A DNA stretch of 64,000 nucleotides from Mosigvirus mar005p1. Where the stretch lies: the sequence record OZ035759.1; one strand, written 5' to 3'. The position numbers were made by a program, and so were the translations under genes. This document shows, one piece after another, positions 32,800 to 34,248 of this stretch (positions are counted from its first letter, which is position 1; each line of letters starts with the position of its first letter). The notes below the pieces were generated by a model that made no database searches, had not been told where the DNA came from, and was given only the letters and a program-made list of their open reading frames with translations.

Positions 32800-32830
32800 C
32801 AAAAAAAGCCCCAACCTTTCGGAAGGGGCT
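32800..32830 (-). terminator. rho-independent terminator after tRNA/stable-RNA region
   Basis: Minus strand AGCCCCTTCCGAAAGGTTGGGGCT followed by TTTTTTT; near-identical to the rI terminator. Confidence 0.65.
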
Positions 32831-32872
32831 ATACACCTTGTCGGGGTTTCCACCTACTAAGGCAAGTGTTTG

Positions 32873-32963
32873 TACGAAACGCTGGGATTTGAACCCAGTT
32901 ATTAAGTAGTTGACGCTACTCAATATTTTTAAAAGGCCATATCTCGACCATATCCGAACGTTC
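32873..32963 (-). ncRNA. tRNA-like structured RNA (possible homolog of T4 stable RNAs rnaC/rnaD)
   Basis: Minus strand has T-arm-like CTGGGTTCAAATCCCAG and a 7-bp acceptor-like pairing (CGGAACG/CGTTTCG), but the interior forms a 10-bp hairpin, not a canonical cloverleaf; no CCA encoded. Confidence 0.3.
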
Positions 32964-33133
32964 CGTCAAAAACGCTACTCGGCTTACGGCAAAGATATTT
33001 CCTCGAATCGATAATTCGGTGCGCCGTTTCTGCTGTGATGTAAGGGGATATTAACAAATCGTAAAGATTTATTAAGACCAGTCCTTACTCAGGGAACATC
33101 AGTCCGACGACTTGCCGGTAGCGACCCGGCTTC

Positions 33134-33478
33134 TTATTTTGACATATCATCAATTTGCTCTCGACGCCGACGCCATAGATTAATCGCTTCATTACCACAT
33201 TCGGCGTTTGGTATATGACGGCAATAATATAATGATTCGCGTTTCTGGAACCGATGTTGCAATGGGATTTCGTTTAAAAGGTCTTTACGATCAAAGTATT
33301 CAAAACTAGTTAACCCAGAACGGTTTTTAATGAACTTCCAATGTCCAAATTCATTTTGAACATAGATGTAATCGGCATGCTGATACAGCGAATTAATCAA
33401 TCGGTCTGAAATAACTGTATCGTGTTCGTTAAAATAAAACGTTAAATCATGAACTACTAAGTAAACATTACCTTTCAT
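33134..33478 (-). CDS. hypothetical protein (114 aa) between tRNAs and tRNA-like RNA
   Basis: ATG at 33476-33478 (MKGNVYLVV) with GAGGAAA SD; the longer track ORF would overlap tRNA-Arg. Confidence 0.5.
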   Translation of the reverse strand: MKGNVYLVVHDLTFYFNEHDTVISDRLINSLYQHADYIYVQNEFGHWKFIKNRSGLTSFEYFDRKDLLNEIPLQHRFQKRESLYYCRHIPNAECGNEAINLWRRRREQIDDMSK

Positions 33479-33496
33479 ATTTTCCTCACTTGAAGT

Positions 33497-33573
33497 TGGT
33501 CGAGACAGAAGGATTCTAACCTTCAACCTACGGATTAGAAGTCCGTTGCTCTATACAATTGAGCTATGCCTCG
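33497..33573 (-). tRNA. tRNA-Arg (anticodon UCU)
   Basis: Hand-folded cloverleaf: acceptor CGAGGCA/TGTCTCG, D-arm GCTC..GAGC, anticodon stem ACGGA/TCCGT with loop CTTCTAA, T-arm GAAGG-TTAGAAT-CCTTC, 3' ACCA encoded. Confidence 0.85.
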
Positions 33574-33576
33574 GAT

Positions 33577-33653
33577 TGGTGACCCAGACCAGATTCGAAC
33601 TGGTAACCTTTCCCTTATGAGGGGACTGCTGCTAACCATTGAGCTACAGGGCC
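33577..33653 (-). tRNA. tRNA with anticodon CAU (Met or lysidine-modified Ile)
   Basis: Acceptor GGCCCTG/CTGGGTC (one T-T mismatch), anticodon loop CTCATAA, T-arm ACCAG-TTCGAAT-CTGGT, 3' ACCA encoded; D-arm atypical. Confidence 0.6.
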
Positions 33654-33716
33654 TAAATAACTTTCTATTATGAAAGGCACTTTAGAGCACCTTTGGTAAT
33701 AGAGGGTATGAATTAA

Positions 33717-33743
33717 TAATAACACATAATTCTTAAAGCAAAT
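33717..33743 (-). promoter_or_regulatory. possible MotA-dependent middle promoter for the tRNA cluster
   Basis: Minus strand ATTTGCTTTAA (MotA-box-like) then 11 nt then TATTAT, about 55 nt upstream of the first tRNA. Confidence 0.4.
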
Positions 33744-34248
33744 CAATCATTTTAACAGTTGGCAAAACGATTTCTTCTTCAATATAAGCAAATTCAACAC
33801 GTTCAACTACACGCAAGAAATCATAATCATAATATTCAGAAGCATGTCCAAGAATATCAATGAGACCTTCTGATACTAAATATCCATTCTCACGGAACAG
33901 GTCGAATACACGCGATTCGTCTTCTTCAGATTTATTACCAAGGTCGACTTCAATATCAAAGACCTTTTTAATAAATTCCGGTTGGAGTTGGTCTGAGAAC
34001 AGTCCTTCAACCAAGTATTCATAGATTAAAAGCGAACAATCACTGAATAGTGTATTACCACAGTAACGTTCAGCTTTAGTGCTGGAATGACGGCTCTTAA
34101 ATTTCTTCAAAAGATATTTAAACTGTTGGAGCTCATGCTCTTCTACACCAAACAACGTTTTAGTTTTATAGTTGTCGCCGTCATTTTCCCAAGTAGTGAC
34201 ATCAATTACGTAACCCTTAGGAATTGTACTGCCTAAACAAATATTCAT
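33733..34248 (-). CDS. hypothetical acidic protein (171 aa)
   Basis: ORF with ATG. Confidence 0.55.
   Translation of the reverse strand: MNICLGSTIPKGYVIDVTTWENDGDNYKTKTLFGVEEHELQQFKYLLKKFKSRHSSTKAERYCGNTLFSDCSLLIYEYLVEGLFSDQLQPEFIKKVFDIEVDLGNKSEEDESRVFDLFRENGYLVSEGLIDILGHASEYYDYDFLRVVERVEFAYIEEEIVLPTVKMIDLL

What the first reader, a model, noticed from the sequence alone, without database searches (positions are those of the whole stretch)
32800..33760. Compact RNA locus: two tRNAs, an embedded protein gene and a non-canonical tRNA-like RNA
Reading the minus strand: a MotA-box-like middle promoter (33717-33743), tRNA-CAU (33577-33653), a 3-nt spacer, tRNA-Arg-UCU (33497-33573), a 114-aa ORF, then about 300 nt with no ORF that contains a tRNA-like T-arm and acceptor pairing but an interior 10-bp hairpin (32873-32963), ending at a strong terminator (32800-32830). 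T4 encodes eight tRNAs plus two stable RNAs of unknown function here; this phage appears to have a reduced tRNA set, and the 300-nt region is a candidate for rnaC/rnaD-like RNAs. The CAU tRNA has a T-T mismatch in the acceptor stem and an atypical D-arm in my hand fold.
Basis: partly seen in the sequence, partly recalled or inferred. Interest (0 to 1): 0.45.

Follow-up and report, generated by a model that had tools for sequence, protein, structure and literature searches.

The report
Phage T4-type tRNA operon, stable RNAs
This stretch is the RB69-like (Mosigvirus) version of phage T4's tRNA operon: two tRNAs for rare codons, one small protein gene, and orthologues of T4's two stable RNAs rnaD and rnaC, which have been known for about 50 years but still have no known function, so the locus is real but ordinary.

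Summary
ARAGORN and Rfam both call tRNA-CAU (33577-33653, -) and tRNA-Arg-UCU (33497-33573, -). The CAU tRNA differs by 1 nt from T4's isoleucine tRNA.

The roughly 300-nt ORF-free stretch is the orthologue of T4 rnaD (species 2 RNA, window 33018-33137) plus rnaC (species 1 RNA, window 32873-33011). rnaC is 97% identical to T4 and rnaD 86%, while flanking genes are 76-83% identical. Both RNAs are already annotated in related phage records (RB68; rnaC in the Mosigvirus ATK47).

The "tRNA-like" element is the 3' part of rnaC. It is not a canonical tRNA and has no Rfam family.

New but modest points:
- Both RNAs have covariation-supported structures.
- Both occur as separable modules inside tRNA arrays of other Tevenvirinae genera.
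- rnaC carries two invariant complementary hexamers (UUGACG and CGUCAA), a candidate loop-loop contact.

Function remains unknown. Verdict: interpretation supported, already known, low-to-moderate interest.

The parts
33716..33743 (-). MotA-box type middle promoter: ATTTGCTTTA, a 12-nt spacer, then TATTAT as the -10 element
   Evidence: Pattern match (8 matches in the window against 1.7 expected). The sequence is conserved with T4's region immediately upstream of its tRNA cluster. Promoter function was not tested.
33664..33703 (-). Leader hairpin between the promoter and the first tRNA; a candidate processing site
   Evidence: Fold energy -15.7 kcal/mol, z = -4.3. T4 has a hairpin at the equivalent position. 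A role as an RNase III site is inferred from the literature only.
33577..33653 (-). tRNA with a CAU anticodon; the orthologue of T4 tRNA-Ile, which presumably reads AUA after modification of C34
   Evidence: ARAGORN and Rfam at 54 bits. It differs by 1 nt from the T4 tRNA-Ile annotated in NC_000866. It carries C4:G69 and C5:G68 and a conserved U6.U67 mismatch.
33497..33573 (-). tRNA-Arg (UCU), which reads AGA. It belongs to the type shared with RB68 and ATK47 and is not alignable with T4's tRNA-Arg.
   Evidence: ARAGORN, Rfam at 71 bits and the alignment.
33134..33478 (-). 114-aa protein gene of unknown function (phrog_3355, the RB69ORF150c family). Its UAA stop codon overlaps the homology-mapped 5' end of rnaD.
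   Evidence: ORF list and Shine-Dalgarno sequence. PHROG match at E = 6e-50. Homologues found in 425 phage records. No significant Pfam, NCBIfam or PDB match and no informative fold match.
33018..33137 (-). rnaD (species 2 RNA) orthologue: a 5' hairpin with loop GUCGCUA, a long closing stem GUCGUCG/CGGCGCAC, and a lineage-variable apical hairpin
   Evidence: 86% identical to T4 rnaD. Own covariance model scores 147.9 bits. Covariation: 12 pairs with compensatory changes against 6.2 in shuffles. Fold z = -3.1.
32873..33011 (-). rnaC (species 1 RNA) orthologue, a four-way junction. Its parts are: an acceptor-like stem (33004-33010 paired with 32875-32881, with tandem U.U), a long arm (32934-33003, apex UUGACG at 32964-32969), a 10-bp hairpin (32900-32925, loop CGUCAA at 32910-32915) and a T-arm (32882-32898).
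   Evidence: 135/139 identical to T4 rnaC. Own covariance model scores 166.7 bits, with a single copy in the window. Consensus fold and covariation: 13 compensatory pairs against 2.8 in shuffles. Fold z = -5.2.
32831..32872 (-). Conserved 3' trailer containing a 7-bp hairpin (32851-32868). It is kept even in Dhakavirus phages that lack rnaC.
   Evidence: Fold. Conservation seen. The sixth stem pair is G:C in T4, G:U in the window and A:U in phage 55, read directly from the sequences.
32801..32830 (-). Intrinsic terminator: AGCCCCUUCC-GAAA-GGUUGGGGCU followed by U7
   Evidence: Fold energy -16 kcal/mol, z = -3.4. A terminator is annotated at the equivalent place in Kha5h and G53. The same hairpin recurs at 17245-17262.

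Best explanation
This is the Mosigvirus (RB69-like) form of the phage T4 tRNA operon. The claims below are graded by how well they are supported.

**Layout (shown by sequence and homology).** One minus-strand transcription unit starts at a MotA-type middle promoter. [quoted passage not shown] The two tRNAs read AUA and AGA. These codons occur at 10.6 and 7.5 per 1000 in the window's long ORFs, and by my recollection they are the rarest in E. coli.

**Biogenesis (inferred from T4, probability about 0.8).** Host tRNA-processing enzymes cut the transcript into stable pieces. rnaC presents RNase P with a 7-bp acceptor-like stem stacked on a 5-bp T-arm, which is the minimal tRNA mimic. Its 5' end, and thereby the 3' side of rnaD, would be made like a tRNA end. 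This fits the position of rnaC directly between tRNAs in Karamvirus and Kanagawavirus.

**Function (inferred, probability about 0.3).** rnaC and rnaD act in trans as accessory RNAs that engage host factors, rnaC as a tRNA mimic. They affect fitness on particular hosts rather than being core translation components. They are under tRNA-like purifying selection, including their loops, yet they are gained and lost as modules between genera.

**Tertiary contact in rnaC (inferred, probability about 0.4).** The invariant UUGACG at the apex of the long arm pairs with the invariant CGUCAA loop of the 10-bp hairpin.
For: **Identity.**
- blastn against T4 gives 89% identity over 33139-32803, compared with 76-83% for flanking genes.
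- rnaC is 135/139 identical to T4 and rnaD 104/121.
- rnaC and rnaD are annotated at the aligned positions in T4, RB68, ATK47 and Kha5h.
- The tRNAs are called by two tools, and the CAU tRNA differs from T4 tRNA-Ile by 1 nt.

**Structure.**
- Fold z-scores are -5.2 (rnaC) and -3.1 (rnaD).
- rnaC has 13 compensatory pairs against 2.8 in shuffles and 1-4 in slid controls.
- rnaD has 12 against 6.2.
- Acceptor pair 4:136 changes from A:U to G:C in the 4 divergent sequences. The rival pairing 49:136 breaks in the same 4.

**Modularity.**
- rnaC is precisely absent in the Dhakavirus phages AnYang and IME341.
- In Karamvirus, rnaC sits between tRNA-Trp and tRNA-Gly. In Kanagawavirus it follows a tRNA-CAU.
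- rnaD-like elements lie elsewhere in those tRNA arrays.

**Loop-loop contact.**
- Both hexamers are invariant in 14 of 14 sequences.
- In Karamvirus VPA32/KaAlpha the 5' domain is replaced, yet the complementarity is kept and extended to a 19-bp helix.

**Host-specific role.**
- A convergent SNP arose in rnaD in all lines of a T4-like phage evolved on a semi-permissive host (PMC12685909).

**Expression in T4.**
- Both RNAs were detected by RNA-seq and validated by Northern blot as late-accumulating RNAs of unknown function (PMC9697503; PMC3014915).

**Codon usage.**
Against: - No RNA data exist for this phage. The ends of rnaC and rnaD are transferred from T4's annotation.
- RNase P processing of species 1 RNA is my recollection of 1970s-80s work (the Abelson, McClain and Apirion labs). 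I could not retrieve it.
- rnaC's 3' tail is UA(CAA), not NCCA, so it lacks one RNase P/CCA determinant.
- The Kanagawavirus T-loop is UGCAUGC, not a canonical T-loop.
- The hexamer complementarity shows no covariation because both hexamers are invariant. By my rough estimate, about two 6-mer complements within a 139-nt RNA are expected by chance.
- Most compensatory changes probably trace to few evolutionary events, since the sequences come from 4-5 genera.
- The rnaD alignment that includes distant members was fitted to the model.
- Nothing here identifies a binding partner or target.
Confidence: 0.85

Rival explanations
1. The 3' part (about 32873-32966) is a genuine, if odd, tRNA gene, for example the 94-nt 'tRNA-Lys' annotated at this place in the phage 55 record. 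It would be a class-II-like cloverleaf with a long variable arm.
For: - The phage 55 record annotates a tRNA-Lys there.
- An alternative cloverleaf can be drawn by eye: acceptor GGAACG/CGUUUC, a 4-bp D-like stem with GG in its loop, the 10-bp hairpin as a variable arm, and the T-arm.
- 5 of its 6 acceptor pairs hold in most sequences.
- The junction strand reads CU-NNN-AA, like an anticodon loop.
Against: - ARAGORN makes no call, and there is no RF00005 hit even at E<=10.
- No 5-bp anticodon stem with a 7-nt loop can be drawn.
- Pair 49:136 of this fold breaks in all 4 divergent sequences, while the competing 5'-terminal pair covaries.
- VPA32 lacks the D- and anticodon-like segments entirely but keeps the 5'-terminal acceptor.
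- T4's mature RNA is annotated as 139 nt.
- There is no sequence similarity to any phage or E. coli tRNA beyond the T-arm.
Confidence: 0.03
2. rnaC and rnaD have no trans function. They are cis-acting processing and stability modules (tRNA-like 'punctuation' plus 3' protective structures) that merely accumulate because they are structured.
For: - They sit at the 3' end of the operon, or between tRNAs.
- The tRNA-like minihelix would recruit RNase P.
- By my recollection, T4 deletions of this region are viable.
- No function has been found in about 50 years.
Against: - Loops and single-stranded segments are as conserved as the stems. Examples are UUGACG, CGUCAA and GGCCUUU..AAAAA in rnaC, and AAGUCGUCG, UCCCUG and CGGCGC in rnaD.
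- rnaC is 97% identical to T4, against 76-83% for neighbouring genes.
- A convergent adaptive SNP arose in rnaD on a new host.
- Much simpler hairpins would be enough for punctuation.
Confidence: 0.25
3. They are base-pairing regulatory sRNAs that target phage or host mRNAs through their conserved single-stranded segments.
For: - Conserved unpaired stretches exist.
- The literature calls them 'small regulatory RNAs' without evidence.
Against: - No target was identified or searched for here.
- The mature RNAs are separated from the terminator, so they lack the usual Hfq-binding 3' end.
Confidence: 0.15
4. The stretch encodes small peptides, from the mechanical ORFs of 37-42 aa at 32795-32923, 32929-33057 and 33085-33198.
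For: These ORFs exist in the six-frame list.
Against: - They have TTG or GTG starts and I saw no Shine-Dalgarno sequence in front of them.
- Substitutions are compensatory in RNA stems.
- 1-nt indels separate close relatives within the region.
- The RNAs are known stable species in T4.
Confidence: 0.01

Closest known systems
Phage T4 rnaC (species 1 RNA, 139 nt)
   Same: 135/139 identical, with the same length and the same position: after rnaD, before the trailer and the terminator. The predicted fold is the same.
   Different: There are four substitutions. Two of them form a compensatory C:G to U:A change in the T-stem, and one changes the T-loop from UUCGAAU to UUCAAAU. Expression and ends are unverified for this phage.
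Phage T4 rnaD (species 2 RNA, 119 nt)
   Same: 86% identical, with the same conserved base (5' hairpin and closing stem) and the same position directly upstream of rnaC.
   Different: In T4, rnaD abuts tRNA-Arg with a 1-nt spacer. Here, as in RB68, a 114-aa ORF lies between them and its stop codon overlaps the mapped 5' end of rnaD. The base pair of the 5' hairpin is G:C here and A:U in T4. The 3' end is CACC-G here and CACC-A in T4.
Canonical class II tRNA (long variable arm)
   Same: Acceptor-like 7-bp stem continuous with a 5-bp T-stem and a 7-nt UUCAAAU loop; a long hairpin immediately 5' of the T-arm; location within or next to tRNA arrays.
   Different: There is no D-arm or anticodon arm; a roughly 70-nt extended arm takes their place. 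The acceptor stem has tandem U.U mismatches. There is no encoded CCA (the tail is UACAA). tRNA finders do not call it.
tRNA-like domains that borrow tRNA-processing enzymes (tmRNA tRNA-like domain; mascRNA and MHV68 viral tRNA-like RNAs)
   Same: The working principle is the same: an acceptor/T-arm mimic lets RNase P and 3' processing enzymes mature a non-tRNA. This comparison rests on my general knowledge.
   Different: No tag reading frame and no tmRNA call by ARAGORN. No sequence or Rfam relationship. Different organisms and partners.
E. coli tRNA-Ile2 / T4 tRNA-Ile (CAU anticodon converted to lysidine)
   Same: The CAU tRNA differs from T4 tRNA-Ile by 1 nt and carries C4:G69 and C5:G68. 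By my recollection these are the acceptor-stem features TilS uses to tell tRNA-Ile2 from tRNA-Met.
   Different: The modification state was not tested. Software and most GenBank records label it tRNA-Met.

Membership tests
T4 rnaC (species 1 RNA) | Sequence homology to T4 rnaC over its full length | tested here: met
   135/139 identical. The covariance model built from 14 homologues scores 166.7 bits.
T4 rnaC (species 1 RNA) | Position in the tRNA operon, downstream of rnaD and upstream of the operon terminator | tested here: met
   Collinear alignment with T4, RB68, ATK47 and Kha5h.
T4 rnaC (species 1 RNA) | Accumulates as a stable RNA of about 139 nt in infected cells, with its 5' end made by RNase P | not testable with these tools
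   Shown for T4 by Northern blot (PMC9697503). The RNase P step is from my recollection of older literature. No data exist for this phage.
T4 rnaD (species 2 RNA) | Sequence and structure homology to T4 rnaD | tested here: met
   104/121 identical. Covariance model score 147.9 bits. The conserved helices covary.
T4 rnaD (species 2 RNA) | Stable RNA of about 119 nt in infected cells | not testable with these tools
   No RNA data for this phage.
Canonical tRNA (for 32873-32966) | Cloverleaf with D-arm, a 5-bp anticodon stem and a 7-nt loop, detectable by tRNA models | tested here: not met
   No ARAGORN call. No RF00005 match at E<=10. The rival acceptor pairing is not supported by covariation.
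Canonical tRNA (for 33497-33573 and 33577-33653) | Cloverleaf detected by independent tRNA models | tested here: met
   ARAGORN. RF00005 scores of 71.1 and 54.0 bits against a gathering threshold of 29.
tRNA-Ile2-type (CAU anticodon read as AUA) | Orthology to an experimentally assigned isoleucine tRNA with a CAU anticodon | tested here: met
   1 nt different from the tRNA-Ile annotated in T4 NC_000866.
tRNA-Ile2-type (CAU anticodon read as AUA) | C34 modified to lysidine; charged with isoleucine | not testable with these tools
   Needs mass spectrometry or an aminoacylation assay.
tmRNA | tRNA-like domain together with a tag-peptide reading frame | tested here: not met
   ARAGORN reports no tmRNA in the window, and there is no Rfam tmRNA hit.
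T4 MotA-dependent middle promoter | MotA box (a/t)(a/t)(a/t)TGCTTtA about 12 bp upstream of a TAnnnT -10 element | tested here: met
   ATTTGCTTTA-N12-TATTAT at 33716-33743, conserved in T4.
T4 MotA-dependent middle promoter | MotA/AsiA-dependent transcription start | not testable with these tools
   Needs 5'-end mapping in infected cells.
Intrinsic terminator | G+C-rich hairpin followed directly by a U-run | tested here: met
   Hairpin at 32807-32830 (-16 kcal/mol) followed by U7.

The most novel reading that the evidence does not exclude
rnaC is a dedicated tRNA mimic, held in shape by an internal UUGACG:CGUCAA loop-loop contact. T-even phages would deploy it, possibly with rnaD, against a host tRNA-directed activity, for example as a decoy or inhibitor for a tRNA-cleaving defence nuclease or a tRNA-processing or tRNA-binding factor. 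That would explain its tRNA-level conservation, its modular gain and loss inside tRNA arrays, and the adaptive SNP in rnaD seen on a semi-permissive host.
Probability: 0.15. Interest if true: 0.7.

Novelty: already known. Interest (0 to 1): 0.25.

Why it matters
For this window the result is mainly correct annotation.
- The gap holds rnaD and rnaC, not a tRNA-Lys as one GenBank record states.
- The "tRNA-Met" is the AUA-reading tRNA-Ile.

More broadly, rnaC and rnaD are among the oldest known phage non-coding RNAs and still have no known function or Rfam family. The comparative data gathered here give concrete handles for mutagenesis and for building RNA families:
- covariation-supported folds for both RNAs;
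- the candidate kissing loop in rnaC;
- the occurrence of both RNAs as separable modules within tRNA arrays of at least five Tevenvirinae genera.

None of this depends on this window in particular; T4 itself is the better system for the experiments.

Tried and rejected
- **Rfam.** The scan at E<=10 gave only chance hits on the terminator and on the antisense strand of the tRNAs. There is no family for rnaC or rnaD.
- **Tighter pattern scans.** Scans of viral, metagenome and genome collections found only T4-like phages. Chance hits also appeared, including a Bacteroidota MAG with no matching structure. No homologue outside Tevenvirinae was found.
- **tRNA origin of rnaC.** Local alignment of rnaC to 14 phage and E. 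coli tRNAs showed nothing beyond the T-arm, so no specific tRNA ancestor can be named.
- **Septu/tRNA-Tyr paper (PMC13096335).** I checked it for a link to rnaC; it mentions neither rnaC nor rnaD.
- **Older literature.** Searches for the species 1/p2Sp1 work found nothing, and Miller et al. 2003 is not held in the library.
- **The 114-aa ORF.** The Pfam hit (DUF2654) is below threshold. There were no NCBIfam hits and no significant PDB sequence hits. The AlphaFold model is of medium quality (pLDDT 70). It has no PDB fold match and matches only uncharacterised T4-like phage proteins in BFVD.
- **Second rnaC copy.** The covariance model search found none; the 12.8-bit hit at 2584-2704 (E = 0.33) is noise.
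- **Second BLAST place in LF82 phages.** I fetched only the first locus, which has the same layout as the window. The second place is probably the repeated terminator hairpin rather than a duplicated locus, but I did not confirm this.
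Full report
**1. What is in the sequence**

Everything below is read on the minus strand.

- **tRNAs.** ARAGORN finds exactly two tRNAs in the 64-kb window: tRNA-CAU at 33577-33653 and tRNA-Arg(UCU) at 33497-33573. Rfam's tRNA model agrees, with scores of 54.0 and 71.1 bits against a gathering score of 29. A 3-nt spacer, AUC, separates them.
- **CAU tRNA mismatches.** The cmscan alignment marks non-standard pairs at acceptor 6:67 (U.U), D-stem 13:22 and anticodon stem 27:43.
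- **ORF.** A 114-aa ORF (33134-33478) follows, with GAGGA 4 nt upstream of its ATG.
- **Structured gap.** The next roughly 300 nt carry only mechanical 37-42-aa ORFs with TTG or GTG starts. They fold far better than shuffles: z = -5.2 for 32875-33013 and z = -3.1 for 33020-33137.
- **Terminator.** The unit ends in a hairpin followed by U7 at 32801-32830 (-16 kcal/mol, z = -3.4).
- **Promoter.** Upstream, TGCTTTA-N12-TATTAT lies at 33716-33740. The pattern occurs 8 times in the window against 1.7 expected.

**2. Origin of the window**

The 1.1-kb region is 94-97.5% identical to Mosigvirus phages such as moskry, JS09 and ATK47, the RB69 group. Within it, the 351 nt from the ORF stop to the terminator match 798 phage records, all T-even relatives of enterobacteria.

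**3. Identity of the 300-nt stretch**

The stretch aligns collinearly with T4's rnaD (species 2 RNA, T4 71053-71171) and rnaC (species 1 RNA, T4 70908-71046). Transferring T4's boundaries gives these window coordinates:

| Element | Window coordinates (minus strand) | Length |
|---|---|---|
| rnaD | 33018-33137 | 120 nt |
| spacer | 33012-33017 | 6 nt |
| rnaC | 32873-33011 | 139 nt |
| conserved trailer | 32831-32872 | 42 nt |

- rnaC is 135/139 identical to T4, and rnaD is 104/121 identical.
- The flanking protein genes are 76-83% identical to T4 at the DNA level, and tRNA-Ile is 98.7% identical. rnaC is thus conserved like a tRNA.
- The same features are annotated as rnaD and rnaC in RB68, and as rnaC in the Mosigvirus ATK47 and in Kha5h.
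- Rfam 15 has no family for either RNA: nothing relevant appears even at E<=10.

**4. Structure of rnaC**

Fourteen distinct homologues from Tequatrovirus, Mosigvirus, Kanagawavirus, Karamvirus and uncultured contigs give a consensus four-way junction. Its parts are:

- an acceptor-like stem, CGAUUCG/CGUUUCG, with tandem U.U, formed by the 5' and 3' ends;
- a long, interrupted arm of about 70 nt;
- an 8-nt single strand;
- a 10-bp hairpin with the loop CGUCAA;
- a 5-bp T-stem with a 7-nt loop (UUCAAAU here, UUCGAAU in T4).

Thirteen of 50 pairs show compensatory double changes, against 2.8 in column shuffles and 1-4 when the partners are slid.

One caveat applies. Changes in the long arm come largely from VPA32, whose 5' domain is not really alignable. 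The solid covariation is in the acceptor stem, the hairpin and the T-stem.

One GenBank record (phage 55) even calls a 94-nt "tRNA-Lys" there. Three points count against it:

- Its pair 49:136 breaks in all four divergent sequences, while the competing pair 4:136 switches from A:U to G:C in the same four.
- VPA32 lacks the segments needed for that cloverleaf but keeps the 5'-terminal acceptor.
- tRNA finders do not call it.

rnaC shows no similarity to any particular tRNA beyond the T-arm.

**5. A candidate tertiary contact in rnaC**

UUGACG lies at the apex of the long arm (32964-32969) and CGUCAA in the hairpin loop (32910-32915). The two are complementary, and both are invariant in all 14 sequences.

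In Karamvirus VPA32/KaAlpha the 5' domain has been replaced by unrelated sequence. It still contains UUGACG, now within a 19-bp complement to the hairpin region, and the predicted fold becomes one long helix.

This retention through a domain swap is the main argument for a functional pairing. There is no covariation, and by my rough estimate a 6-mer complement within 139 nt is not rare by chance. I rate the contact at about 0.4.

**6. Structure and spread of rnaD**

The consensus fold has these parts:

- a 7-nt 5' tail;
- a 5-bp hairpin with the loop GUCGCUA, whose base pair is A:U in T4 and G:C here;
- a long closing stem, GUCGUCG/CGGCGCAC;
- internal loops with an invariant UCCCUG and CACAG;
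- an apical hairpin that exists in at least three unrelated versions.

A covariance model built from these sequences finds weaker relatives (15-28 bits) inside the tRNA arrays of Karamvirus and Kanagawavirus. They share AAGUCGUCG, UCCCUG, CACA and CGGCGC, and their stems covary: 12 compensatory pairs against 6.2 in shuffles. That alignment was fitted to the model, which biases the count.

**7. Modularity**

- The Dhakavirus phages AnYang and IME341 keep rnaD and the trailer but lack rnaC precisely...GCGCACCGAA|ACACUUGCC....
- In Kanagawavirus, rnaC follows a tRNA-CAU directly. In Karamvirus it sits between tRNA-Trp and tRNA-Gly.
- In T4, rnaD abuts tRNA-Arg. Here and in RB68, an unrelated type of tRNA-Arg(UCU) plus the 114-aa ORF takes that place.

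The two RNAs are therefore independent cassettes that behave like tRNA genes in genome evolution.

**8. The tRNAs**

The CAU tRNA differs from T4's annotated tRNA-Ile by one T-loop base. It carries C4:G69 and C5:G68, so it should be read as the AUA-decoding tRNA-Ile. The U6.U67 mismatch is conserved, not a defect.

AUA and AGA occur at 10.6 and 7.5 per 1000 codons in the window's 50 longest ORFs. By my recollection this is several-fold above E. coli usage. It fits the retention of just these two tRNAs in a reduced set.

**9. The ORF**

The ORF belongs to phrog_3355 (unknown function, E = 6e-50) and is present in 425 phage records. It has no Pfam match above threshold, no NCBIfam hit and no significant PDB sequence match. 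An AlphaFold model (pLDDT 70) has no PDB fold match and matches only uncharacterised T4-like phage proteins.

Its UAA stop codon overlaps the homology-mapped 5' end of rnaD. Cutting there would remove the stop codon from the message. Whether that happens is unknown.

**10. How it most likely works**

- **Shown by sequence and homology:** one operon running promoter, leader hairpin (33664-33703, z = -4.3), tRNA-Ile, tRNA-Arg, ORF, rnaD, rnaC, trailer, terminator.
- **Inferred from T4 biology:** host RNase P and other tRNA-processing enzymes cut it into stable RNAs, with rnaC recognised through its acceptor/T-arm minihelix.
- **Function:** unknown in the literature (PMC3014915, PMC9697503). One recent experiment found the same SNP in rnaD in all lines of a T4-like phage evolved on a semi-permissive host (PMC12685909). 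Together with the tRNA-level conservation and the modular gain and loss, this makes me favour, at about 0.3, an accessory role in trans in which rnaC engages a host factor as a tRNA mimic. The rivals are passive processing or stability elements (0.25), base-pairing sRNAs (0.15), a genuine tRNA (0.03) and peptide genes (0.01).

**11. Verdict**

The locus is an already known feature of T-even phages in its Mosigvirus form. The comparative structural points are useful leads for an old open question, but they are modest and do not depend on this window. Interest is 0.25.

Noticed in passing
L008 24-124; L020 6805-6905; L006 864-991; L018 4562-4660: The rnaD covariance model finds weak (15-28 bit) rnaD-like elements inside the tRNA arrays of Karamvirus and Kanagawavirus phages. 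BLAST had found only rnaC there. They share the motifs AAGUCGUCG, UCCCUG, CACA and CGGCGC, and their stems covary.
   Followed up: partly
L008 1128-1266 (Klebsiella phage VPA32; identical in KaAlpha): This is an rnaC variant whose 5' domain is replaced by unrelated sequence. That sequence contains an inverted copy of the hairpin region, so the RNA is predicted to form a 19-bp long-range helix instead of two hairpins. L141 has a T4-like 5' domain at the same genomic position, between tRNA-Trp and tRNA-Gly.
   Followed up: partly
window 33497-33573 (-), compared with L005 2174-2248: There are two unalignable kinds of tRNA-Arg(UCU) in T-even phages: the T4/Dhakavirus kind and the window/RB68/ATK47 kind. 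The window's kind has the T-loop UUAGAAU (A where C56 is usual) and a D-loop without GG. In the loci I looked at, it occurs together with the 114-aa ORF.
   Followed up: partly
window 33134-33137 (-): The UAA stop codon of the 114-aa ORF overlaps the 5' end of rnaD as mapped from T4. The RB68 record likewise shows a 4-nt overlap between the CDS and rnaD. Processing at that point would leave the mRNA without a stop codon.
   Followed up: no
window 17245-17262 (-) and 32810-32827 (-): The same terminator hairpin core, CCCUUCCGAAAGGUYGGG, occurs twice in the window, where 0 matches are expected by chance. Related phages also carry extra copies, for example AnYang L007 at about 1997-2029.
   Followed up: no
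window 33664-33703 (-): A 16-bp interrupted hairpin (z = -4.3) lies in the leader between the MotA-type promoter and tRNA-Ile. T4 has an 11-bp hairpin at the same place. It is a candidate for the RNase III site reported for T4 tRNA precursors.
   Followed up: partly
window 32792-32799 (-): The T4 late-promoter consensus TATAAATA lies immediately after the operon terminator and about 35 nt upstream of the next gene (32130-32756). No such motif lies upstream of rnaD or rnaC within the locus.
   Followed up: no
window 32831-32872 (-): The trailer between rnaC and the terminator is conserved, even in Dhakavirus phages that lack rnaC. It contains a 7-bp hairpin whose sixth pair is G:C in T4, G:U in the window and A:U in phage 55. 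Next to it, ACCCCGAC resembles the 5' half of T4's terminator.
   Followed up: partly
window 32927-32935 (-); alignment A4 columns 78-84: The single-stranded junction of rnaC reads CU-NNN-AA: UUU here, CUU in Kanagawavirus, UUG in Karamvirus and UAC in L140. The flanks are conserved and only the middle triplet varies, which resembles an anticodon loop. In the consensus fold, however, the CU is paired.
   Followed up: no
L001 2335-2428 (Escherichia phage 55, OQ599310.1): This GenBank record annotates a 94-nt tRNA-Lys on what is actually the 3' two-thirds of rnaC. Most other records leave the region unannotated or place hypothetical proteins over it.
   Followed up: yes
window 33114-33130 (+): The only terminator-like hit from the simple scanner in this region is on the plus strand. 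It is just the reverse complement of rnaD's 5' hairpin followed by a T-rich run.
   Followed up: yes
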